A stretch of DNA of 64,000 nucleotides from Candidatus Thorarchaeota archaeon (GTDB taxonomy: Archaea > Asgardarchaeota > Thorarchaeia > Thorarchaeales > Thorarchaeaceae), in contig JAFGAR010000028.1 in assembly GCA_016933575.1 (NCBI GenBank), positions 128,001 through 192,000 on the forward strand. The letters are read 5' to 3'. The notes below the pieces were generated by a model. That model worked only from the letters and a program-made list of their open reading frames with translations, searched no databases and was not told the origin of the DNA. This document shows, piece after piece, positions 26,123-36,659 of this stretch (positions are counted from its first letter, which is position 1; each line of letters opens with the position of its first letter). The position numbers were made by a program, and so were the translations under genes.

Positions 26123-26764
26123 GTGATTACAATGACTTTACCATACACCGATAGCAAGGATATTGATACACTCCTTGGTAGAGCTGCCACTTTGATAGAG
26201 AAGAAGCTCTTCGATGAGGCACTTGTCACTCTTCAGCATGGCCTATCTTTGGATCCGGACAATCCGAAAACATGGGAGCGTATTGCTGCATGCAATCTTG
26301 AAATGGGAAAACCAAAGATGGCAATTGAGGCACTCAATAACTTATTACGAATCCAGCCAAATTCCTACTCAGGGTGGGCAGATAAAGGTCTATTACATTT
26401 ACTAATGAATGAAACATCAGAAGGTATTGGTGCTCTCAAAGAGAGTCTACGACTGAATCCAAGAAGAGCAAGAGACTGGGAACTTCTAGCAACTGTATTG
26501 ATTTCAGAAGAACGATGGGATGAAGCACTTGACGCCCTCGAAAAGACCCTAGATATGAATCCGAATTCAGCTGTCACATGGTACAATCTGGCTATTGTCT
26601 ATCTCTTTTTCGAAGAACTCAATTTGGCAGTACAAGCAGCAGAAGTCGCCTTCTCAATTGATCCATCCCTCAGAGAACTTGCAGAGGACTGGATAGACAT
26701 GGTCGATGAAGATGATACCGAAGATGAAGATGATACAGCACTCTATGATTTTGCGGCAAGTTGA
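26123..26764 (+). CDS. TPR-repeat protein with acidic tail
   Basis: About five 34-aa TPR units (e.g. 'LSLDPDNPKTW', 'LDMNPNSAVTWYNLA'). Confidence 0.85.
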   Translation: MITMTLPYTDSKDIDTLLGRAATLIEKKLFDEALVTLQHGLSLDPDNPKTWERIAACNLEMGKPKMAIEALNNLLRIQPNSYSGWADKGLLHLLMNETSEGIGALKESLRLNPRRARDWELLATVLISEERWDEALDALEKTLDMNPNSAVTWYNLAIVYLFFEELNLAVQAAEVAFSIDPSLRELAEDWIDMVDEDDTEDEDDTALYDFAAS

Positions 26765-26765
26765 T

Positions 26766-28652
26766 TCATTCTTCATCTAATGACGCAAGCTCACTCTCTA
26801 TTGATTTCACAAAATTGGATATTTTGAAACTCTTGGCTGCTTCAAGAGCTTGTTGAAGTGCAGATCGAATTCTCTGCAATTCTTTTTCCCTATCAGCAGG
26901 ATTTGTGATGTTTGTCAATTCTTCTCGTTTCTTAGGAAGCATACTGAGAAGACCTTCTATTGCATCTTCAGCTTCATCCCGGCTTGTAAATGTGCTCTCT
27001 TGACCAGGATCATATGATGACAATATTCGTTCAATCTGCTCATGGATTTTTTTGTATTCCTGCAAAGCACCCGAGAGAATCCTGTGTACTTCACCCTCAG
27101 TTTCAGCTTCCTCCAAAGCATTAGATATCTTCTCTATGGCTTTTTCTAAGTACTCCTTCCTATCTGAAAGATTACTCCGTTTTCGTTCAAGCCATCTCCA
27201 TTCATTGGAGATATTCCGGATCAAAGCTGATGCATGATTGATAGTTTCGCGGTATTGGTCATATCTGGCCATTGCCTCAGTGAAATCTGACTCAAGCGTG
27301 TCAATAACATGCGAGAGTTGAAAACTGAGCATATCACTTGCTTGAGCCTCAGCTAGAACACGACTCTCCTTAATTGCACGATTAGCGACTGCCCAGAGAC
27401 GTTCAACATCCTCGGGATTCATATCAGTGCGTTTTCTGACCTCCAATTCTTCAGATAATTGTGAGATGTCATGATTAATCGATTGTAGTTCTTGCATCTT
27501 TGCTTTTAGTAATGCTTTGCCCAAGCGCGTGTTCAAATCATTAGTCAGCATTTTACGCTCCTCAGGTACTTCCTGCAAAGCTTGTGTGTTATCAATCAGG
27601 ATCTGAAGGGCTTTTTCGAAATCTCCAACAGCTTCATGGAATAGTCCTTCTTGATATTGCTCATCTCCCTTCCTTTGCAATTCTAAGGCACTCTCAAGAA
27701 CATCATAAGGTGATGTCTTCAACAGACTATCTCTGAGTAACAATGGATAGGTTGAATGAAGGTCTAATGGATGACCAGATGCCATAATACGTAAAATATG
27801 AATACAATCAGCTGTTGCAACATAGATAAGGTCGCCTTCTGCAGTGAGATAATCGATCTTCTGATTGTCCAGAGCGATACTACCTAACTCATCTCCTTTC
27901 TTCAGGTCCCACAAAGTGACATTCCCAGGAGATACTGCTCCAAGGAGATAGTTCTCTGTTGTCCACATTGAAGTCACAACATTGGCATTCTTTACTTCAA
28001 ATGTTCGTACCAATTCCCATGCTGTTCGCTCATATACAGCAATTTCTCCAGAAGGTGTACCGATGAAGACAAACTCGGAGTTGCCACTGACAATACCACC
28101 CTTGCCTTTCTTATCAAGTCTTGCAAGTTCTGAAGGAGCAGCATCAGACTCTTTCAACCATACCTTTGGCTCTTCTTTTTTCGTACTAGTACAAATTATC
28201 TTTTCATCAGACCATATGCTAGTGAGATCAGATTTGTGAAGTTGCCAACTTGAAGTCTCATGGGTGTCTTTCTGAATTGATACAAGACGTCCATCTCGTG
28301 CTCCAACGAAGAAGAAATCGCCTTGAAGTCTAGAAGTGACAGCTTGATAGCTCAATTCGAACCATCCTATCATGCCCCATGTGTCTTTCTTCCAAACATA
28401 TACTCTCTTCTCACATGTAGCATAGACCTGTTCATCATCAACATCAACAGCAAGTAGGTCTGAACCTGTTTCGCCAAGCTCAGCAATAAGTTCCCAATTT
28501 GTTTTTGACCAGACACGAATTCGCTGATCACGACACGCGGCGTATAGAAAGTTCTCATCATAATCGATATCAAAAGCATCAACACTTAGCTCGGATACAG
28601 TCTCATGACTGATGAGATTTAAATCATTCTTCCCCGTCGATGAGTGGTCCAT
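26766..28652 (-). CDS. WD40-like beta-propeller + MIT/TPR-like helical bundle + coiled-coil protein
   Basis: About seven ~38-40-aa blades (IRVWS, VYVWK, PKVWL, VTLWD) in residues 1-290, then an all-helical, heptad-rich C-terminal half. Confidence 0.75.
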   Translation of the reverse strand: MDHSSTGKNDLNLISHETVSELSVDAFDIDYDENFLYAACRDQRIRVWSKTNWELIAELGETGSDLLAVDVDDEQVYATCEKRVYVWKKDTWGMIGWFELSYQAVTSRLQGDFFFVGARDGRLVSIQKDTHETSSWQLHKSDLTSIWSDEKIICTSTKKEEPKVWLKESDAAPSELARLDKKGKGGIVSGNSEFVFIGTPSGEIAVYERTAWELVRTFEVKNANVVTSMWTTENYLLGAVSPGNVTLWDLKKGDELGSIALDNQKIDYLTAEGDLIYVATADCIHILRIMASGHPLDLHSTYPLLLRDSLLKTSPYDVLESALELQRKGDEQYQEGLFHEAVGDFEKALQILIDNTQALQEVPEERKMLTNDLNTRLGKALLKAKMQELQSINHDISQLSEELEVRKRTDMNPEDVERLWAVANRAIKESRVLAEAQASDMLSFQLSHVIDTLESDFTEAMARYDQYRETINHASALIRNISNEWRWLERKRSNLSDRKEYLEKAIEKISNALEEAETEGEVHRILSGALQEYKKIHEQIERILSSYDPGQESTFTSRDEAEDAIEGLLSMLPKKREELTNITNPADREKELQRIRSALQQALEAAKSFKISNFVKSIESELASLDEE

Positions 28653-28857
28653 AATATTACCACCGATACAATGGCTCTAATAACATGATTTAGGACAACT
28701 TATGGCAGTTTCCTTTTGCACAAAAACACCCTAACGTGCGATTTATCGAACTTAGAACGGGAGAATACATGACACAATCGTTGAAAAGGGAGAAACCACA
28801 CACAGAAAGCACTTAAGACATTTACAGGTGAAAGCCATATTAGATGGAGGTAGGTCT

Positions 28858-31548
28858 ATGGACAGTCACGGATGGAGACGCGAACTGGACAAGTTTGCGG
28901 AATTGAAAGGAATCCTAGTGTCAGTCAATCCGATACTAGAAGAACAGGCTAATCGCCAAGTCCGAAACCTCTATGATATCTTTGCTAGTTTAAGCAAGCT
29001 AGAGAATGATCTCACTAACGCGGGCTTGCTAAAGAAACGAAAAGTTCAGACTGAAGTTGATAAAACTACTAGTGAGCTTGAGGATGCATTCATGAGAGCC
29101 ACTCGTGACTTTGCTGAACTATTCAGGAAAGAGCATAGAGATGTAGTTGCGATTATACCCAAATTACAGGCAATTAAACCTGCAGAATCAAAGTCAATCT
29201 CGACTATTAGTTTTCCCGGGATTGGCGCAGGGGATATGAAAGACTTTGAGAAATTGATGGAATTTGCCAAGTCATATTCAAAGTTGTATCTGATTATTTT
29301 TGAAGATGTATCTCGAGAGGTCAAGTCTGTCTTGGATGAGAACAAGGCTACAGTAGACACCTATGAGAGACATGTCACCATCGACAAGAGTGAGGTATCA
29401 ACAACAGTATCTAATGAGGATGTCGCGGGTCTCACAATGCGAGACTTGATCATTCTGAATGACAAGCTCATGGAAGACCGGAAATACCTCAATAGTCGGA
29501 AAGATGAAGTCAGCAAGATGCTGGGTTCATCTTTGGTTAGTGATACTGAATCACTACAGGCATCCGTTGAAACAGCTGCAAGATTGGGACTGGACCTACC
29601 AATGGAATTCTCCCAGCAACTGCGAATCATAGCTAGAGATGCATCAAAAGCACAAGATCTGACCTCTCTGGTAAGTCTTGAGAACCAGCTCCACACCTCC
29701 AAGATAAAGATGGCAAACATGTTGAGAGATAAAATCATCAACATCAAGCATGAGGTCACTCAGAAGATTGTAGATGGGGGAATACCAACTACCTCAGAAG
29801 TCATTCCAAATCCACCATCTGTATCAGTCGAAGGGGAAGGTATTGCAGGATTATTATCAAGTTATCAGCGGATGGTAGAGTGGGAAGGTCAAGTAAGAAT
29901 CGCACTACGTGAAAGACTCTACGAGTTACTTGATGATGTTGAGAAAGCCTCTGAAGTCCCCGATGACACTGGTATTAAAGATGTCATCACAGTGAGACAA
30001 TACATAGCTGATTCAAAGAAGAGTCTGAAATCAGCAGACATTGATGAAATGGTGAGAATCTACATCAAAGTCAAAGCTATGGATGAAGAATACCGTAAAG
30101 CCATCATCGATAGTATACGAAATTACCTAACACGATTCAATGAATTGGCAACTTCAGCAGACCGCGTGCTAGATCATGCCCAGTTAAGCAAGAAGGCTCC
30201 CAAAGTCGAAGAGATGGAGGGTGGAATAACCTATCTACTTGAGTCACTCTCAACTTTGCGACAAGCTGTAGAGAGTGGAGTAGCAACATTTCGTGAAGCC
30301 TGTCAGCAAGAGATTGATGCTATTGTCCATGACCTTCAAACAGTCAAACCTGCTTATGCTGAAATCTTCATGCCAATTATTGTAGAACTTGATGAAGGAT
30401 CCAACAGAATTCAGGTCATGGATGACTTTACAGAGATCAAATCAGAGATGCGTTCTATCAAAGAAACAATGCTTGCAAAGGCAAAGGATTCTTTGGAGAA
30501 CCTGCGCTACAGATTAGGTGTAAAGATTCGACTCGCTGCTGCGAAGCTCATGGGTGCAGGTGTCGAGATACCTCCCGAAGTACAAGAGGCAATCAGTGAA
30601 TTGAATAGTATCGGTGTGGCTGCAGACAATGTTTTTGCCTTGCCTGCAATCGCAAGAAAGATGATTGAGATATATGAAAAGAAGATCTCGAACAATGTCA
30701 TTGATCAGCTAGAGTCGGAGGTCGATTCACTCATCACCTCCCTTGAGAAGGCAAAAAGCATTGGTGTCAAGGTTGAAAAGGAATTGAAGATGCTCACTTC
30801 TTTGAAGGAGAAACCTCCCACAGAGCTCGAAGAAGCCGCGGATGCCTTTGACAAACTAATGAACCTGACAACATCCCCACAGGTGCACAAGAAGATAAGA
30901 GACCGGGTTGATGAGGCCTATCTCCAGATCAAGAACGCAGTAGGGCTCTTCGAAGAACAGGGGATGTCTGAGTTCGTTGAAAGGTTAAAGATGCTAATTG
31001 ACCAAGTACCAGCTAAGCTGGAAAATGAGTCACCTCATGTTAATGATGCCCTTGATGTTTGCCTGACCCTAGCAAATATCCAGGAAGAGATGCTCAGTGT
31101 GATAAAGAACATCTCAAACATGAGTGGAGAAAGGCACGACCGTGAACTTAGAGAGAAAAGCCAATATTACTCAACAATTGAACGAGTTGTTGAAAACCAT
31201 CAAGACCAATTCAGCAAAATCGTATTCAACATAAACAAGATGAAAGAATTAGAATCAACACTTAATGTTCTATCTAATCTTGATGAAACAATCACATGTT
31301 TCCATGAACTTGAAAATATGAGGAAATCGTGGCTCGAGAAATCAATAGCAATGGATGACTGGCACAAGTCATTAAGAATGTTTATGACTGGTTTCAGTCC
31401 TGCAGCAAAGGCTGATGAACGAGACAAGTTCATTGAAGATGCAATACGAAAAATCAAAGAGACCTATAGTAGAGAAGACATCAGTTCTTATCTCAGCTGG
31501 GCGGTAAGGGAAAGCGCTCAAGCATTGGTCGGCGCAAGAAAAACATAG
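28858..31548 (+). CDS. Large helical-repeat/coiled-coil protein of unknown function
   Basis: Continuous amphipathic helices rich in E/K/L/I, no TM or catalytic motif; ATG 28858 preceded by GGAGGT. Confidence 0.75.
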   Translation: MDSHGWRRELDKFAELKGILVSVNPILEEQANRQVRNLYDIFASLSKLENDLTNAGLLKKRKVQTEVDKTTSELEDAFMRATRDFAELFRKEHRDVVAIIPKLQAIKPAESKSISTISFPGIGAGDMKDFEKLMEFAKSYSKLYLIIFEDVSREVKSVLDENKATVDTYERHVTIDKSEVSTTVSNEDVAGLTMRDLIILNDKLMEDRKYLNSRKDEVSKMLGSSLVSDTESLQASVETAARLGLDLPMEFSQQLRIIARDASKAQDLTSLVSLENQLHTSKIKMANMLRDKIINIKHEVTQKIVDGGIPTTSEVIPNPPSVSVEGEGIAGLLSSYQRMVEWEGQVRIALRERLYELLDDVEKASEVPDDTGIKDVITVRQYIADSKKSLKSADIDEMVRIYIKVKAMDEEYRKAIIDSIRNYLTRFNELATSADRVLDHAQLSKKAPKVEEMEGGITYLLESLSTLRQAVESGVATFREACQQEIDAIVHDLQTVKPAYAEIFMPIIVELDEGSNRIQVMDDFTEIKSEMRSIKETMLAKAKDSLENLRYRLGVKIRLAAAKLMGAGVEIPPEVQEAISELNSIGVAADNVFALPAIARKMIEIYEKKISNNVIDQLESEVDSLITSLEKAKSIGVKVEKELKMLTSLKEKPPTELEEAADAFDKLMNLTTSPQVHKKIRDRVDEAYLQIKNAVGLFEEQGMSEFVERLKMLIDQVPAKLENESPHVNDALDVCLTLANIQEEMLSVIKNISNMSGERHDRELREKSQYYSTIERVVENHQDQFSKIVFNINKMKELESTLNVLSNLDETITCFHELENMRKSWLEKSIAMDDWHKSLRMFMTGFSPAAKADERDKFIEDAIRKIKETYSREDISSYLSWAVRESAQALVGARKT

Positions 31549-31560
31549 GAGTAGCAGTCA

Positions 31561-32946
31561 ATGTTTGGAACCAATCCTGGTGTAGATAGTGATGACACAA
31601 CCAAAGCAGCTGAAGTTTTTGCAATCGGAATAGGAGAATGTGGGTCTAATATTGTAGGTTCATACCTCCAGACTAGCCGCGATAATAAACTGCCATCACG
31701 TGTTCGAGGATACCTCCTCATCAATACAGATAGAGCAGACCTCACCAAGGTCAGGCAAAAATACAAGATACCCAAGGAAAACACCCTCTTGTATGGCGCG
31801 TCTGAGATAGGTGTCGGTGGTCGTTTCATGGATGGGTATAATGCAATCATGGAATCCAAGGACATCATCTTCGACCAGTTGAGTAATCTAGGATTTGAGG
31901 GTGTATCGGGATTCTGTATCTTTACATCCTTGGGTGGTGGTACCGGATGCGGCGGAGCTCCTGCTTTAATTGAGCTTCTAAAACAGAGATTCCAAGAAGA
32001 AGAAGGTCGCCGTATCTTCGTGTACGTTGTAGGTATTCTGCCCTTTGAAGGCCAGTCCAGCGAAGCTTTGAACTCAATATGGGCAGTATCTAAACTGCTT
32101 CGGGCTCAACTTCAGGAACGAGGCGCAGACCTGACTATCTTACTTTCAAACCGAACTATGCTGAAGAGGATTCTTCAATGGAGAAAAGGAGATACTGTGG
32201 ACTATCTACGAAGAGAACTCGATGTAGATATTGCAGATATTGACTCCATCGAGTCGATGGTACCATCAACCCTCGATGAAGCGAGTGATCTTGAGGCGAG
32301 AACAGAACAAGCATTCGTTGAATTGGTGAACCCACTCGCTCTGGATGTTGTTGAGGCAATGCTTTCGCCAGGAGTCTGGGAAAGTCATAAAGATGTATTT
32401 CCAACAACCGACCTAGCAGATTATTCACGAAAACTGGACCCAGTAGTGGTACCAGCTCTCTATACTGACATTGGTCTAATCCCTGATGCCGGTAGCATGC
32501 CAAAGCAGCTAAGAACAATGATAGACTATGCAGTGAAGGAGTGTTCCTATGCAGACGTTGGAGAAGAACCCAATGCTGAATCTGTCTACTATGTTCTTTC
32601 AGGACCGACTCATATTGCTAAAGCTGAGTTTGGTATGCATGTGAAAGAAGCTCTTGACAAATTCATTGCTCCAGGTGCTGCAATCACACCATGTTATGTC
32701 CAATATCATGTTCCTGATGCAAAGACAAACCTGCTTTTATTGCTCGGACTTCCGAAGATACCAGAGCTTGTCACTATCATCAATGAAGCAACACAACTGG
32801 TCAATCTTCATAGCGGAGCATCTCCACTAAAACAGGGCTGGTTTATGAGATCTAAAGGAACATCTCGAAAGGAACTTGTAGATGCCATTAATGACTTCCG
32901 TGAGCTCTTCAGTTATTACATGACTCCTGGAGAGACTATGCAATAA
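31561..32946 (+). CDS. Divergent tubulin/FtsZ/CetZ-superfamily GTPase
   Basis: T1 'GIGECGSNI', T2 'INTD', T3 'GVGG', signature 'SLGGGTGCGG', T5 'ILPFEG', T6 'LLSN', T7 'TTDLADY'; AGGAG RBS. Confidence 0.9.
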   Translation: MFGTNPGVDSDDTTKAAEVFAIGIGECGSNIVGSYLQTSRDNKLPSRVRGYLLINTDRADLTKVRQKYKIPKENTLLYGASEIGVGGRFMDGYNAIMESKDIIFDQLSNLGFEGVSGFCIFTSLGGGTGCGGAPALIELLKQRFQEEEGRRIFVYVVGILPFEGQSSEALNSIWAVSKLLRAQLQERGADLTILLSNRTMLKRILQWRKGDTVDYLRRELDVDIADIDSIESMVPSTLDEASDLEARTEQAFVELVNPLALDVVEAMLSPGVWESHKDVFPTTDLADYSRKLDPVVVPALYTDIGLIPDAGSMPKQLRTMIDYAVKECSYADVGEEPNAESVYYVLSGPTHIAKAEFGMHVKEALDKFIAPGAAITPCYVQYHVPDAKTNLLLLLGLPKIPELVTIINEATQLVNLHSGASPLKQGWFMRSKGTSRKELVDAINDFRELFSYYMTPGETMQ

Positions 32947-32960
32947 TGGAGTGTGAATAA

Positions 32961-34031
32961 TTGTCTGATGGTGACTCCTCATCCTTTCAATACGATGACC
33001 TCATTGATAGGCTACTCCTAATTGTAACTCTCAATTCCACATTGATCCATTTCTTGTTGAGTTCTCAAGTTGAAGGATACATTGATCCTGATCGAGTGGA
33101 CTCACTGACCCAAGGATTGGTAAGAACGAGAAAGTGGATGGAAGAAGCCACAACAATGAAAGGTGTACCCCCTTCAACTCAAAATATTTTGAGTCTGATT
33201 GTCAAGCGACTTGCACAAGTTGAGAGTCTGCTACCAAAACTATCAGACAAAGCCAAGTTGGCTGAGAAGACTCCAGCACAGGAGATTCTCTCATTACTTG
33301 ATGGAGCCCAAGTAAAGACGAAGGTCTCTTCAGAAGGTGCGTCACTGGAAGCAAGTTCTGAGACTGAGTTGGTTCCTCTTGTAGGAGCTGAGCCTGCAAA
33401 GACTTTGGAGGCATATAGAAAGGTCGATGTAGAGGACGACCAATTTGGGTTGATTGGCCAGACCCAGCGGCTAATCCAGCAATATTCGCCACGTTGTCAT
33501 ATTTTATTGCCGACCTTTTGGCTTGAAGCACTTCGAGAGATTCACAAATACAGATCTGAATCTCCATACTTTGGAGATGTTATTGAGCTTCCAGCAAGAA
33601 TCATTGTAAAGGTGACAAAAAGCCTTCTCACAGAAGCACCAGGGGCAAGACTGTTACAAGACTTGATGAAGAATCGACAACAAGAGAGCTATCTCAATAG
33701 TTCAGAGATGGAACGTATCGAGCGAGCAGTTGCAAAATACTTCCAAGGTGTTGAAGCAGTTCTAAAAGAAGACACACTGAATGTCAAGGACAAGATTCTT
33801 GAGGCTCAGACTGCATTCGATGGATTTGGATGGGGTGGACCAGAGCTAGAGAAACGCCTGATTAAGCGGATAAATCAAGAATGTGAAGAGTCGCTCCAGA
33901 ATGCTGAATCTGCAACTGATGAAGCAAGACAGGTCATTTATGCTGAAATTACAAAGTTGATGAGTAAACTTCAACACGCAATTCTTGCAGAATCACGACC
34001 TCGTGAAATCCTCTCGCAAATGAAGCCATAG
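32961..34031 (+). CDS. Hypothetical alpha-helical protein, third gene of the tubulin-like operon
   Basis: 356-aa ORF starting 14 nt after the GTPase stop, GGAG upstream; no recognisable motif. Confidence 0.7.
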   Translation: MSDGDSSSFQYDDLIDRLLLIVTLNSTLIHFLLSSQVEGYIDPDRVDSLTQGLVRTRKWMEEATTMKGVPPSTQNILSLIVKRLAQVESLLPKLSDKAKLAEKTPAQEILSLLDGAQVKTKVSSEGASLEASSETELVPLVGAEPAKTLEAYRKVDVEDDQFGLIGQTQRLIQQYSPRCHILLPTFWLEALREIHKYRSESPYFGDVIELPARIIVKVTKSLLTEAPGARLLQDLMKNRQQESYLNSSEMERIERAVAKYFQGVEAVLKEDTLNVKDKILEAQTAFDGFGWGGPELEKRLIKRINQECEESLQNAESATDEARQVIYAEITKLMSKLQHAILAESRPREILSQMKP

Positions 34032-34119: not shown

Positions 34120-35529
34120 ATGATGTCTGGATTAAGAACCATGTTGAATCCTAAGGTGACAGCTGTGGTTGGAGTATCAACATCTAACCCATTTTCACCA
34201 GGGAATGTTATATTTCGAAAACTTGCATTTGAAAATGCACTTCCCACATATCCAATCAATCCGAAAGGCGGCTTTGTAGAAGGAGTGGAGGTCTACAAAT
34301 CAATTACCGAAGCTCCAAATGATATCGAACTTGTGGTAATATCAGTACCTGCAAAATATGTACCTGGAGTCTTGACGGAGTGCGGAGAAAAAGGAATCAA
34401 AGCTGTCATTGTTGTTTCAGGTGGTTTTAGCGAAATTGGCGAAAGTGGCACCCAATTGCAATCTGAAATAGTTGAGATTGCTAATAAATTCAAGATCTCA
34501 ATGGTCGGTCCAAACTGCATTGGGGTCTATGTACCAGACCTCCTTGATACTTTCTTTCTACCTTCAGAACGAGTTGCAAGATCAAGAAGAGGACATGCTG
34601 CGATTATTTCACAAAGCGGAGGCTGGCTAATAGAGAGATTAGAAGAGTTCGCAGATAGAAGGGTTGGTATTGCAGCAGCAGTCTCAATTGGGAATGCTGC
34701 ACAGATTAAGGTAGCAGATTTTATTGAGCATTTTGGTAACGATAAAAATGTCAATGTCATTCTTTGTTATATTGAAGGTTTTGGACCAAATGAAGGACGT
34801 TATTTTGTTGAAGTCTGCTCTAAAATTGCACTGAAGAAACCAGTCGTTGTTCTAAAGGGAGGAGAATCGGAAGCTGGACACAGGGCGACACAGAGTCATA
34901 CATCCTCGTTAGCTGGAGATCAAGCTATTGCAAAAGCAGCCTTCAATCAGTACGGTGTAATCCATGCATTAGACGAAGATGAGGTCATGGCTTATGCTAA
35001 GATATTCTCCTTTACGCCCAAGTATATGAAGACAAATAGAATTGGTACACTCTCTGTCAGTGGTGGTCATGGTGTCATTGCAAGTGATGAAGCCTCAGCA
35101 TATGGTCTTGAATTCCCACCCTTCTCAGAAGAAGAACAGAGGGCAATGAGGGAGGTCATGACACCTGCATATCAAAACATTGCGTCTTTCAGAAATCCAT
35201 GTGACTTGACAGGTAGTGCCTCGGATATTGATTATGAGAACGTCCTTGATATCATGCTGACGTTTAATTCCATTGATGCGGGTCTCTTACTATTGCTTCC
35301 ATACGCACCTGGAATCTCTTTGCAGATTGGTGCACGAGTGGCAAATGTGTCTAAACGCCACGATAAGGCAGTGGTAGCCTATGTACCTGACCTTGAAAAA
35401 TATGAAGTAATTATTAGGGGCTTTGAACTGAACGGAATTGCGGTTGCAGATACCATCGAAGAAGCAGTTCAAATGCTAAATGGTATTAGGAGAAGGACTA
35501 GGTATTTTCAGCGGATTGGCGTAATTTAG
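34120..35529 (+). CDS. acdA: Acetate/acyl--CoA ligase (ADP-forming) alpha subunit
   Basis: CoA-binding 'YPINPK', 'SGGFSE', 'GPNCIG', 'SQSG', phospho-His 'SHTSSLAG', 'NPCDLTG'. Confidence 0.85.
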   Translation: MMSGLRTMLNPKVTAVVGVSTSNPFSPGNVIFRKLAFENALPTYPINPKGGFVEGVEVYKSITEAPNDIELVVISVPAKYVPGVLTECGEKGIKAVIVVSGGFSEIGESGTQLQSEIVEIANKFKISMVGPNCIGVYVPDLLDTFFLPSERVARSRRGHAAIISQSGGWLIERLEEFADRRVGIAAAVSIGNAAQIKVADFIEHFGNDKNVNVILCYIEGFGPNEGRYFVEVCSKIALKKPVVVLKGGESEAGHRATQSHTSSLAGDQAIAKAAFNQYGVIHALDEDEVMAYAKIFSFTPKYMKTNRIGTLSVSGGHGVIASDEASAYGLEFPPFSEEEQRAMREVMTPAYQNIASFRNPCDLTGSASDIDYENVLDIMLTFNSIDAGLLLLLPYAPGISLQIGARVANVSKRHDKAVVAYVPDLEKYEVIIRGFELNGIAVADTIEEAVQMLNGIRRRTRYFQRIGVI

Positions 35530-36659
35530 GTCCCACTAGCAACTCTTTTGTAATCAATATCAAGGGATTGGAGAGCTTCAACCAGTTTACCTTTCAATAT
35601 GAGTTGTCTTGAGGAGAAGTCTGTAACTGATGAACAACCAGTCAGATACATAGCTGCCTTCAGCCCATCCAGTATCTTTTCAATTTCTACAACAACATCC
35701 AAGCTAGAGCCATAGACAGCAGGTCGTAAGAGTGGAAGAGCTACACCAGCTGAGATTGCTCCAAGACTGAGTGCTTTTGCAATATCAAGACCGGATCGAA
35801 TCCCACCAGTGGCTATTACATCAAGTTCAGTAGAATCTAAGACCATGATAATGCTTAATGCAGTAGGAATACCCCAATCCCAGAATTCAAGCCCAAGCTG
35901 TGCTTTCACCTCATCCGACTCTCGAAGCGCTCTGAAATATTCAACACCAGCCCAGCTAGTGCCACCGACTCCCCCAACATCGACGCCATCTACTCCAATT
36001 TCTTCAAGACTACGTGCCACCTCAGATGATATCCCTGCACCTGTTTCTTTCACAATCACTGGAACATCAACAGCATCAACGATAGCAGCAATTCCTTCAA
36101 GAAATCCTTCCGAGTTGCAATCGCCTTCTGGTTGGATTGCCTCCTGCAGAGGATTCAGATGAACAGCAAGAATATCTGCTTCAATCATGGAAACTGCATC
36201 CTCAGCGAGATCAACATGAGTTGCGCCGATATTTGCTATTACAGGAACCGAAGGAGCACGTTCTCTCACAATTGTAAAAGTGTCAGCAAGATCAGGATTT
36301 TCAATACCAGACCGTTGACTTCCCACTCCAATGGGAATACCTAGTTCTTCAGCTGCTATTGCTAGTTTTTCATTTATTGAGAGAGTACGAGGATGACCGC
36401 CAGTCATCGCTGCAATAACAAGTGGAGCATTCGCCCTAAGACCGAAGAAAATGGATGTTAGATTGATTTTCTCCATATCGATTTCAGGAAGTGCATTATG
36501 AACGAATTCAATATCCTCAAACATTGTAGTTTTCCGACATTGAACGTCTTCCTCCAGACAGATCTCGATGTGTTCAATCTTCCTGCGTTTAGTCAGAGAA
36601 GCTTCAGTTATATCAGTATCAGATTCATCAAGATCATCAGGTTTGTTGTGGACCATCAA
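35526..36659 (-). CDS. fni: Type II isopentenyl-diphosphate delta-isomerase (FMN)
   Basis: 'RKIEHI', 'AMTGG', 'GVGSQR', 'HLNPLQE..QPEG', 'VKETG', 'GGTSW'. Confidence 0.95.
   Translation of the reverse strand: MMVHNKPDDLDESDTDITEASLTKRRKIEHIEICLEEDVQCRKTTMFEDIEFVHNALPEIDMEKINLTSIFFGLRANAPLVIAAMTGGHPRTLSINEKLAIAAEELGIPIGVGSQRSGIENPDLADTFTIVRERAPSVPVIANIGATHVDLAEDAVSMIEADILAVHLNPLQEAIQPEGDCNSEGFLEGIAAIVDAVDVPVIVKETGAGISSEVARSLEEIGVDGVDVGGVGGTSWAGVEYFRALRESDEVKAQLGLEFWDWGIPTALSIIMVLDSTELDVIATGGIRSGLDIAKALSLGAISAGVALPLLRPAVYGSSLDVVVEIEKILDGLKAAMYLTGCSSVTDFSSRQLILKGKLVEALQSLDIDYKRVASGT

What the first reader, a model, noticed from the sequence alone, without database searches (positions are those of the whole stretch)
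31561..32946. The GTPase is a mosaic: CetZ/tubulin-like GTP loops, FtsZ-type T7 aspartates, an acidic insertion and an amphipathic tail
Seen: T1 is GIGECGSN, with the E-C pair resembling the Q-C/Q-A of tubulin and CetZ rather than FtsZ G-G-G-G-x-N. T3 is GVGGRF, not FtsZ GAG.NP. The signature is GGGTGCG. T7 is TTDLADY, keeping both acidic residues of FtsZ N-x-D-x-A-D but lacking the Asn. About 40 acidic residues (RRELDVDIADIDSIESMVPSTLDEASDLE) are inserted between T6 and helix H7. The C-terminus ends in a likely amphipathic helix (RKELVDAINDFRELFSYYM) rather than an FtsZ linker plus core peptide. Inference: a polymerisation-activated GTPase of a distinct subfamily, with the insertion as a partner-binding or lateral-contact surface.
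Basis: partly seen in the sequence, partly recalled or inferred. Interest (0 to 1): 0.75.

Follow-up and report, generated by a model that had tools for sequence, protein, structure and literature searches.

The report
Asgard tubulin-like GTPase (Asg.Tub member)
This gene encodes an intact tubulin/FtsZ-type GTPase of "Asg.Tub", an Asgard-archaeal family that was named in 2023 and for which I found no bench study. Its odd motifs and its roughly 40-residue insertion are real family traits, and it is always inherited with the same two unknown helical proteins, so it probably builds an unexplored filament system.

Summary
It is a tubulin/FtsZ-superfamily GTPase (Pfam Tubulin, E 1.8e-20) in a Thorarchaeota-type Asgard genome that also holds two ordinary FtsZ genes. 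It belongs to the published but uncharacterised "Asg.Tub" group (Santana-Molina et al. 2023, PMC9871819).

- **Motifs:** T1 (E-C), T4 (Cys) and T7 (T-T-D-x-x-D) are conserved across the family.
- **Insertion:** the stretch between T6 and H7 is 45-57 residues, against 9-22 in FtsZ, CetZ and Asgard tubulins. The insertion is acidic only in the Thor branch.
- **C-terminal helix:** in the model it overlays tubulin H11-H12 and follows the preceding helix without a linker. It therefore looks like an outer-surface helix, not a membrane tail.
- **Placement:** the protein lies outside CetZ (no CetZ_C domain, outside the CetZ clade), true tubulin (no Tubulin_C) and FtsZ.
- **Context:** it sits in a three-gene operon between two helical proteins with the same phyletic pattern (about 115 of 301 Asgard genomes).

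Polymerisation, GTP hydrolysis and partner binding are inferred, not shown. This scan has already reported the same family from other genomes (62 earlier findings in at least 42 genomes matched a word search for it).

The parts
31561..32946 (+). Asg.Tub-family tubulin/FtsZ-superfamily GTPase gene, 461 aa
   Evidence: ORF. Pfam PF00091 at E 1.8e-20. AF2 model with pLDDT 82.4 and pTM 0.83. Z 35 to OdinTubulin and CetZ structures.
31627..31650 (+). T1 loop, GIGECGSN (residues 23-30)
   Evidence: Position. G25, E26, G28 and N30 are invariant. The same position is Q in CetZ and tubulin and G in FtsZ.
31723..31731 (+). T2 loop, N-T-D (residues 55-57)
   Evidence: N55 and T56 are invariant and D57 is at 90% or more. 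The genome's own FtsZ1 has the same I-N-T-D-R string. Asgard tubulins have D-L-E-P here.
31810..31827 (+). T3 loop, GVGGRF (residues 84-89)
   Evidence: Position. G84, G86, G87 and F89 are invariant.
31933..31953 (+). T4 signature, GGGTGCG (residues 125-131), with Cys130
   Evidence: Position. C130 is present in at least 90% of the family. The same position is S in CetZ and tubulin and T in FtsZ.
32038..32073 (+). T5 region, L-P-F-x-x-Q-x-x-E-x-x-N (residues 160-171)
   Evidence: L160, P161, F162, Q165, E168 and N171 are invariant. The L-P-F string is FtsZ/CetZ-like. Tubulins have P-S-P here.
32146..32151 (+). T6, S196-N197
   Evidence: Both residues are invariant. The other families compared mostly have D-N.
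32170..32286 (+). Family-specific insertion between H6 and H7 (residues 204-242): two short predicted helices and a disordered loop
   Evidence: The T6-to-H7 interval is 45-57 aa against 9-22 in FtsZ, CetZ and tubulin. pLDDT is 51-68, with helices at 210-220 and 227-231. It is the least conserved internal region, with a mean top-residue frequency of 0.49, and its charge is not conserved.
32287..32373 (+). Core helix H7 (residues 243-271), with F252 and N257
   Evidence: Model. F252, N257 and P258 are invariant. The Asn is as in CetZ and tubulin. FtsZ has Asp.
32404..32424 (+). T7 loop to H8, TTDLADY (residues 282-288), with D284 and D287
   Evidence: Position. D284 and D287 are invariant. The first position is T, where FtsZ and tubulin have N and CetZ has V.
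32761..32919 (+). Three C-terminal helices (residues 401-416, 422-431, 436-453), read as H11, H11' and H12 equivalents
   Evidence: Model pLDDT is 84-91 here. Tubulin alignments run to model residue 455, while CetZ alignments stop at 415-424. W427, F428, K432, G433 and L449 are invariant.
28828..31548 (+). Upstream partner gene: all-helical protein of about 900 aa with no Pfam family. The true start may be at 28858.
   Evidence: Homologous across lineages. It has the same phyletic pattern as the GTPase, 119/301 genomes. It is duplicated together with the GTPase in family f22. The Atlas record begins at residue 11.
32961..34031 (+). Downstream partner gene, 356 aa: N-terminal three-helix bundle, disordered linker at 110-147, confidently modelled all-helical C-terminal domain
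   Evidence: Homologous across lineages. It has the same phyletic pattern, 113/301 genomes, and lies adjacent to the GTPase gene. Model.
31548..31551 (+). GGAG ribosome-binding site overlapping the upstream stop codon, 9 nt before the ATG
   Evidence: Read from the sequence.
32948..32951 (+). GGAG ribosome-binding site, 9 nt before the TTG start of the downstream gene
   Evidence: Read from the sequence.

Best explanation
The gene encodes a member of Asg.Tub, an Asgard-specific lineage of the tubulin/FtsZ superfamily. I read it as a GTP-binding subunit that assembles head-to-tail into protofilaments.

- **GTP binding and hydrolysis (inferred).** Loops T1-T6 and H7 (F252, N257) hold the nucleotide. 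The T7 loop of the next subunit (D284, D287) completes the active site, so hydrolysis follows assembly, as in FtsZ, CetZ and tubulin.
- **Not the division ring.** The genome has FtsZ1 and FtsZ2 as well.
- **Module.** The protein works as the core of a three-gene module with the ~900-aa helical protein encoded upstream and the 356-aa two-domain helical protein encoded downstream.
- **C-terminal helices.** They are the equivalent of tubulin H11-H12. They pack on the body and form an outer surface, which is the likeliest docking site for partners.
- **H6-H7 insertion.** It is a flexible family-specific appendage near the nucleotide-side longitudinal face. Its presence is conserved, but its sequence and charge are not.

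Shown here: gene, motifs, conservation, predicted fold, synteny and co-inheritance. Inferred: GTP hydrolysis, polymerisation, partner binding and cellular role.
For: - **Family identity.** The C-terminal halves of the four published Asg.Tub sequences (two of them Thorarchaeales) are visibly the same protein. P0115, the Heimdall LC_3 member, has the same length and C-terminal end as OLS26264.1 and lies inside the clade.
- **Fold.** AF2 pLDDT 82.4. Z 35.5 to OdinTubulin, 35.2 and 35.0 to CetZ structures, and about 33 to beta-tubulin over residues 16-455.
- **Motifs.** All nucleotide-contact motifs and both T7 acidic residues are invariant in 34 sequences spanning 49-93% identity.
- **Conservation.** The GTPase is 50-55% identical between Thor and Heimdall members, while the partners are only 20-29% identical.
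- **Division genes.** Two FtsZ genes lie elsewhere in the genome.
- **Module.** The gene order is the same in four distant lineages. The per-family phyletic pattern is near-identical for all three genes: 116, 113 and 119 of 301 genomes. The second GTPase copy in f22 carries its own copy of the upstream protein. GGAG sites and 12-14 nt gaps fit one transcript.
- **C-terminus.** Tubulin alignments run through residue 455 and CetZ alignments stop at 415-424. L439, A442, D445, L449 and F450 are conserved, and there is no linker.
Against: - No biochemical, structural or cellular data exist for any member that I could find.
- The fold and the H11-H12 reading rest on a predicted model whose coordinates I could not inspect. 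Only the aligned ranges were available.
- A weak, non-significant sequence match suggests that some CetZ proteins have a comparable last helix (3zid residues 312-367). The 'tubulin-like' C-terminus may therefore be shared with CetZ.
- The first T7 residue is Thr, not the Asn of FtsZ and tubulin, and T6 has Ser-Asn in place of Asp-Asn. The kinetic effects are unknown.
- Conserved synteny does not prove physical binding.
Confidence: 0.6

Rival explanations
1. It is simply a CetZ orthologue and controls cell shape and motility in the way haloarchaeal CetZ1 does.
For: - The three solved CetZ structures are the best sequence matches in the PDB: E 1.5e-11, 3.3e-08 and 4.3e-07 with the family profile.
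- One source names the Heimdall LC_3 member 'Tubulin-like protein CetZ'.
- The published analysis calls the group 'CetZ-like'.
Against: - No Pfam CetZ_C match at E up to 1, whereas all nine CetZ-type comparison proteins match it at 36-231 bits.
- In the careful tree the CetZ_C-bearing proteins group with FtsZ to the exclusion of Asg.Tub, at 92/93 support.
- T1 has E, not Q. T4 has C, not S. T7 has T, not V.
- It has two extra C-terminal helices and a 30-40 aa insertion, and a different, dedicated gene neighbourhood.
Confidence: 0.08
2. It is a proto-tubulin that forms tubes or bundles in the manner of OdinTubulin or AtubA/B. It would then be the functional stand-in for true tubulin in Asgard lineages that lack it.
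For: - The model aligns with tubulins along its whole length, including H11-H12, and Z 35.5 to OdinTubulin is the top score.
- In the 66-row quick tree the clade falls on the tubulin side of a 96% split.
- Published trees place it between CetZ and tubulin.
- None of the 7 of 301 genomes with Tubulin_C belongs to a family that has Asg.Tub.
Against: - No Tubulin_C match.
- T2 (N-T-D) and T5 (L-P-F) are FtsZ/CetZ-type, not tubulin-type.
- It is mostly a single gene, and where two copies exist both keep the catalytic T7, so there is no alpha/beta-like division of labour.
- The careful tree does not join it to tubulin.
- The non-overlap involves only 7 genomes and related lineages, so it carries little statistical weight.
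Confidence: 0.12
3. It attaches to the membrane directly through the C-terminal amphipathic helix, and acts as a membrane-bound filament.
For: - The last helix has a hydrophobic stripe (L439, A442, F446, L449, F450) and a hydrophobic moment of 0.46.
- There is no FtsZ-type linker plus C-terminal peptide that could recruit a SepF-like anchor.
Against: - The helix follows the previous one after a four-residue turn, is modelled at pLDDT 87-91 and overlays tubulin H12.
- Its net charge is -1 and its mean hydrophobicity is negative, unlike typical membrane-targeting helices.
- Its conserved residues fit packing on the body.
Confidence: 0.08
4. It is a non-polymerising GTPase: a regulator, cap or nucleator for the helical partners, in the way some tubulin-superfamily members do not form filaments alone.
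For: - The large insertion lies close to the longitudinal interface and could hinder head-to-tail contact.
- T7 lacks the usual Asn and T6 lacks the usual Asp.
Against: - Both T7 acidic residues are invariant over the whole family. This is hard to explain unless they reach into a neighbouring subunit's active site.
- The GTPase is far more conserved than its partners, as expected for a self-assembling core.
Confidence: 0.1

Closest known systems
Asg.Tub, the 'novel CetZ-like group in Asgardarchaeota' (Santana-Molina, del Saz-Navarro and Devos 2023, PMC9871819). It is probably also the 'CetZ-related Asgard archaeal clade' used as an outgroup in the 2026 AtubAB paper (bioRxiv 10.64898/2026.02.15.705738).
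   Same: It is the same protein family. The published C-terminal alignment lists two Thorarchaeales and two Heimdallarchaeia members whose sequences match this one block for block. The paper also notes coiled-coil neighbours and an unstable position between CetZ and tubulin.
   Different: Nothing differs in kind; this is another member. The following are not in the text I read:
- the motif-level anatomy
- the size and variability of the H6-H7 insertion
- the H11-H12-like C-terminus
- the co-inheritance and co-duplication with the two partners
- the frequency, about 116 of 301 Asgard genomes
CetZ (Haloferax volcanii CetZ1 and CetZ2, Methanosaeta CetZ; PDB 4b46, 4b45, 3zid; Pfam CetZ_C PF21011)
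   Same: CetZ gives the best sequence matches among solved structures. Structural similarity is equal to that with tubulin, at Z 35. Both have an N-T-x type T2, an L-P type T5, Asn in H7 and an acidic pair in T7.
   Different: - No CetZ_C match.
- Outside the CetZ clade.
- T1 E in place of Q, T4 C in place of S, T7 T in place of V.
- An extra 30-40 aa between T6 and H7 and two more C-terminal helices.
- Found in Asgard, not Euryarchaeota, with a dedicated operon.
Asgard and eukaryotic tubulins (OdinTubulin 7evl, AtubA/B 9f6t, alpha/beta-tubulin; Pfam Tubulin_C PF03953)
   Same: Full-length structural alignment that includes H11 and H12. Similar length after T7, 163-192 residues against about 172. 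Asn in H7.
   Different: - No Tubulin_C match.
- T2 and T5 are not tubulin-like.
- T7 has Asp where alpha-type tubulins have Glu.
- No heterodimer pair.
- Only 15-18% identity.
Archaeal FtsZ1 and FtsZ2 (TIGR00065; Pfam FtsZ_C)
   Same: T2 is I-N-T-D-R, identical to the genome's own FtsZ1. T5 has L-P-F. T7 has D-x-x-D.
   Different: - TIGR00065 scores 35.9 bits against a cut-off of 295.2.
- T1 is not G-G-x-G-x-N, T4 has Cys and H7 has Asn, not Asp.
- No linker plus C-terminal peptide.
- The genome has both FtsZ paralogues elsewhere.

Membership tests
Tubulin/FtsZ superfamily | Pfam Tubulin (PF00091) GTPase domain above the curated cut-off | tested here: met
   74.5 bits against a cut-off of 33, E 1.8e-20, residues 18-202.
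Tubulin/FtsZ superfamily | G-G-G-T-G signature (T4), T1-T6 nucleotide loops, and a T7 loop with acidic residues | tested here: met
   Motifs located and invariant in 34 homologues.
Tubulin/FtsZ superfamily | Two-domain fold joined by core helix H7 | tested here: met
   Predicted model only: Z 33-35.5, rmsd 2.8-3.4 over 323-364 residues to CetZ and tubulin chains.
Tubulin/FtsZ superfamily | GTP-dependent polymerisation with assembly-activated hydrolysis | not testable with these tools
   Needs purified protein.
Asg.Tub (Santana-Molina et al. 2023) | Sequence likeness to the published members | tested here: met
   The published C-terminal alignment matches this protein block for block. P0115 has the length and C-terminal end of OLS26264.1.
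Asg.Tub (Santana-Molina et al. 2023) | One clade with those members, apart from CetZ, FtsZ and tubulin | tested here: met
   Clade support 98/98, including P0115. 99% SH-aLRT in the 66-row tree.
Asg.Tub (Santana-Molina et al. 2023) | Asgard-restricted, with coiled-coil or helical neighbours | tested here: met
   Nearly all named hits carry Asgard labels; a few cluster members are labelled Bathyarchaeota or Thermofilum. Flanking helical genes are conserved.
CetZ | Pfam CetZ_C (PF21011) C-terminal domain | tested here: not met
   No match at E up to 1. Nine CetZ-type comparison proteins all match at 36-231 bits.
CetZ | Placement inside the CetZ clade | tested here: not met
   CetZ_C-bearing proteins join FtsZ at 92/93 to the exclusion of Asg.Tub. 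The AU test did not finish, so no formal rejection was obtained.
CetZ | CetZ-type residues around the nucleotide pocket (T1 G-x-G-Q-x-G, T4 G-G-G-T-G-S-G) | tested here: not met
   E26 and C130 replace them and are conserved across the family.
Tubulin proper | Pfam Tubulin_C (PF03953) | tested here: not met
   No match. No hit anywhere in the genome.
Tubulin proper | C-terminal helices H11 and H12 on the outer surface | tested here: inconclusive
   Tubulin alignments extend to model residue 455. This rests on a predicted model and on aligned ranges only.
FtsZ | TIGR00065 equivalog score | tested here: not met
   35.9 bits against a cut-off of 295.2.
FtsZ | Disordered C-terminal linker ending in a conserved anchor-binding peptide | tested here: not met
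   Helices run to residue 453, followed by only 8 unconserved residues.

The most novel reading that the evidence does not exclude
Asg.Tub and its two dedicated helical partners form a self-contained Asgard cytoskeletal system. Its subunit is a surviving intermediate between CetZ-grade proteins and tubulin: an FtsZ/CetZ-type nucleotide half combined with a tubulin-type H11-H12 outer surface that recruits accessory proteins. It would fill the tubulin role in Thor-, Hod/Heimdall- and Baldr-type lineages that lack true tubulin.
Probability: 0.25. Interest if true: 0.8.

Novelty: new member of a known kind. Interest (0 to 1): 0.45.

Why it matters
[quoted passage not shown] True tubulins were found in only 7 of 301 sampled Asgard genomes. 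This family was found in about 116 of them and is highly conserved. It appears to combine an FtsZ/CetZ-like nucleotide half with tubulin-like outer helices and has two dedicated partners. A bench study of one member (filament architecture, GTPase kinetics, partner binding) would show what a third tubulin-superfamily filament does in these cells, and whether accessory-protein docking on H11-H12 predates tubulin proper. The family itself is not a discovery. It was named in 2023 and this scan has met it repeatedly.

Tried and rejected
- **Complex prediction.** I folded the GTPase with the downstream 356-aa protein. The result was no verdict: score 0.29 and 0.02 against a mark of 0.32, and the controls were not run. 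It is not evidence either way.
- **AU test.** A test of an Asg.Tub + CetZ clade on the 66-row alignment did not finish in two 300-s runs. I used a 30-row careful tree instead.
- **Fold of the downstream partner.** Foldseek found nothing at E 0.001 or better. The wide VIA search returned only generic three-helix bundles for residues 1-110, with Z of 11 or less, which is within the noise range for helical proteins. The C-terminal domain was barely tested.
- **Upstream partner.** The protein-atlas look-up returned only its own family. Pfam and NCBIfam gave only sub-threshold hits for both partners.
- **Model coordinates.** They are not available to scripts. I therefore could not measure where the insertion sits relative to the longitudinal interface, or how much of the last helix is buried.
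- **Chimeric origin.** I considered and rejected a recombinational 'mosaic'. The whole length is uniformly conserved within one clade and the GC content is flat.
- **Beta-propeller neighbour.** I considered and rejected the divergent WD40 gene as part of the module. It is missing from the four other lineages checked.
Full report
**The observation**

The window holds an ORF at 31561-32946 on the + strand: 461 aa with an ATG start. All five quoted strings are present:
- GIGECGSN at residues 23-30
- GVGGRF at 84-89
- GGGTGCG at 125-131
- TTDLADY at 282-288
- the C-terminal helix string at 436-454

The quoted insertion string is residues 217-245. Pfam Tubulin matches residues 18-202 at E 1.8e-20. 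GC content is flat across the region.

**The organism and the family**

The window lies in a 3.47-Mb, 85%-complete assembly. That assembly also carries two other PF00091 genes, which score as ordinary FtsZ. This is therefore a third, non-FtsZ paralogue.

A search of 5.8 billion proteins found more than 150 homologues of 49-93% identity. Where named, the listed hits are labelled Thor-, Hod-, Heimdall-, Hermod-, Loki- or Asgardarchaeia. The most divergent branch is labelled mainly Baldrarchaeia, with a few members labelled Odinarchaeota, Bathyarchaeota or Thermofilum.

In an exhaustive profile search of 1.84 billion representatives, the family collapses to two full-length 50% clusters at 720 and 496 bits. 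The next hit is one distant relative at 154 bits (P0124). Everything after that scores 76 bits or less. The family is sharply bounded.

**It is already named**

Santana-Molina et al. 2023 (PMC9871819) report a 'novel CetZ-like group in Asgardarchaeota', called Asg.Tub. They describe it as unstable between CetZ and tubulin and note coiled-coil neighbours.

Their supplementary C-terminal alignment lists four sequences: two Heimdallarchaeia and two Thorarchaeales. All four match this protein block for block. The LC_3 member has the length and C-terminal end of P0115 in my alignment.

[quoted passage not shown] This is probably the same clade.

Searches for 'Asg.Tub', for 'CetZ-like' plus Asgard, and for Thorarchaeota plus tubulin found no functional study. 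I reached this identification before opening this scan's earlier notes. Those notes show that the same family was reported from many other genomes, with the same conclusion.

**Motif by motif**

I made an L-INS-i alignment with the genome's own FtsZ1 and FtsZ2, Asgard tubulins taken from genomes with Tubulin_C, and metagenomic CetZ proteins. All nine CetZ proteins tested carry Pfam CetZ_C. The alignment gave the following:

| Element | Asg.Tub | FtsZ | CetZ | Tubulin |
|---|---|---|---|---|
| T1 position 26 | E | G | Q | Q |
| T2 | N-T-D | N-T-D (own FtsZ1 identical) | N-S/T-A | D-L-E-P |
| T4 position 130 | C | T | S | S |
| T5 | L-P-F | L/M-P-F | L-P-A or L-P-F | P-S |
| T6 | S-N | mostly D-N | D-N | D-N |
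| H7 | Asn | Asp | Asn | Asn |
| T7, first position | T | N | V | N |
| T7, first acid | D (universal) | D | D | D |
| T7, second acid | D | D | D or E | E or K |

The picture is a set of family-specific substitutions on one fold. The nucleotide half leans towards FtsZ and CetZ. Glu at T1 and Cys at T4 also occur in other unnamed archaeal tubulin-like groups.

**The insertion**

The distance from the T6 Asn to the H7 aromatic residue is:
- 45-57 residues in all 15 family members aligned
- 14-22 in FtsZ
- 9-16 in CetZ
- 15-17 in Asgard tubulins
- 23 in P0124, which shows a clean 26-residue gap in pairwise BLAST

The model gives two short helices (210-220 and 227-231) and a disordered loop, with pLDDT 51-68.

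Residues 204-243 hold 11 acidic and 4 basic residues. Across the family the balance runs from 12:6 in Thor members to 6:10 in Heimdall LC_3. The second half of the insertion is unconserved in length and sequence. Presence is the conserved trait. Charge is not.

**The C-terminus**

The model (pLDDT 82.4, pTM 0.83) ends with helices at 401-416, 422-431 and 436-453, at pLDDT 84-91. VIA-align gave these overlays:

| Target | Z | Model residues | Target residues |
|---|---|---|---|
| OdinTubulin | 35.5 | 17-455 | 4-420 |
| beta-tubulins | ~33 | 16-455 | 1-424 or 1-434 |
| CetZ (three structures) | 34.3-35.2 | ends at 415-424 | n/a |

The last two helices therefore correspond to tubulin H11' and H12.

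The last helix has a conserved hydrophobic stripe, a net charge of -1 and a hydrophobic moment of 0.46. Only a four-residue turn precedes it. An eight-residue unconserved tail follows it. This fits a packed outer-surface helix better than a free membrane anchor.

One caveat applies. A non-significant HMMER stretch aligns this region with the end of the Methanosaeta CetZ. Some CetZ proteins may therefore share the helix.

**Placement**

- The family profile hits the three CetZ structures first (1.5e-11 to 4.3e-07), then tubulins at about 3e-05. No FtsZ appears in the top 60.
- The protein has no CetZ_C, Tubulin_C or FtsZ_C match. TIGR00065 scores 35.9 bits against a cut-off of 295.
- In a 30-row careful tree (LG+C20 PMSF) Asg.Tub is a clade at 98/98, and P0124+P0135 are its sister at 100/99. 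CetZ joins FtsZ at 92/93 to the exclusion of Asg.Tub.
- In a 66-row quick tree the clade falls on the tubulin side of a 96% split.
- Long branches and the lack of a root mean I would only claim that it lies outside CetZ, FtsZ and tubulin proper. This agrees with the published trees.

**Context**

The gene sits 12 nt after a ~900-aa all-helical gene and 14 nt before a 356-aa helical gene. Each junction has a GGAG 9 nt before the start codon.

The same order is seen in four distant lineages, and both neighbours are true homologues there at 20-29% identity.

In one sample of 301 Asgard genomes the three genes were found in 116, 113 and 119 genomes. They occupy the same families:
- present: f1, f2, f6, f8, f12, f15, f16, f22, f29
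- not found: f9 (0/68), f5 (0/28) and the remaining families

The listed coordinates put the three genes next to each other.

Family f22 often has two GTPase copies. The second copy also has its own upstream-type gene beside it, for example G259 contig 1 at 2.897-2.900 Mb.

True tubulin (Tubulin_C) occurs in 7 of the 301 genomes, all in families without Asg.Tub. These numbers are too small, and the lineages too closely related, to support a statistical claim.

The downstream protein models as a three-helix bundle, a disordered linker and a confident all-helical domain with no informative structural match.

**Mechanism and its limits**

The intact nucleotide loops and the invariant T7 acidic pair make assembly-activated GTP hydrolysis the most economical reading. 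The GTPase is also far better conserved than its partners. The strict co-inheritance makes a three-protein module likely.

None of this is measured. A complex prediction with the downstream protein gave no verdict. I could not repeat that test.

**Verdict**

The protein is another member of a published but untested family, so the novelty is modest. The family is still a worthwhile bench target for the origin of the tubulin cytoskeleton.

Noticed in passing
window 26766-28652 (-) and 26123-26764 (+): A 628-aa WD40 beta-propeller plus helical protein lies head-to-head with the operon, next to a 213-aa TPR protein. It is not beside the module in the four other lineages checked. A related haloarchaeal CetZ-like protein has been linked to a WD40 'adaptin-like' system (PMC10936438), so the parallel may deserve a look within Thorarchaeia.
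   Followed up: partly
L008:7001-8374 (protein P0124): This is the nearest outgroup of the family: 28% identity, T1 GIGEGGGN, T4 with Cys, and no H6-H7 insertion. It comes from a single metagenome contig, downstream of SMC-ScpA and dihydroorotate dehydrogenase genes, and is followed by an unknown 262-aa gene. Its taxon is unknown.
   Followed up: partly
L007:2532-3113: In an 'Asgardarchaeia' contig a small Ras/Roc/Arf-family GTPase gene lies directly upstream of the three-gene module.
   Followed up: no
G259:C1:2897428-2900520 and other f22 genomes: A second copy of the GTPase is paired with its own copy of the large upstream protein. With this query the downstream partner was found only beside the first copy.
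   Followed up: partly
proteins P0136, P0138, P0141, P0153, P0156, P0158, P0168, P0186, P0189, P0231, P0256: These form a well-supported clade of unnamed archaeal tubulin-like proteins. T1 is mostly G-x-G-E-x-G and T4 is mostly G-G-G-T-G-N-G. They fall outside CetZ, and P0153 has no CetZ_C match although one source names it CetZ.
   Followed up: partly
G000:C40:1-519 (-): The same assembly holds a 60%-identical fragment of the upstream partner's N-terminus at a contig end. It may be a second strain in the bin (contamination is 6.9%) or a paralogue.
   Followed up: no
window 34120-35529 (+) and 35526-36659 (-): From their translations these two ORFs look to me like an ADP-forming acetyl-CoA synthetase-type protein and a type 2 isopentenyl-diphosphate isomerase-type protein. 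I ran no family search on either. They appear to be ordinary archaeal metabolism outside the module.
   Followed up: no
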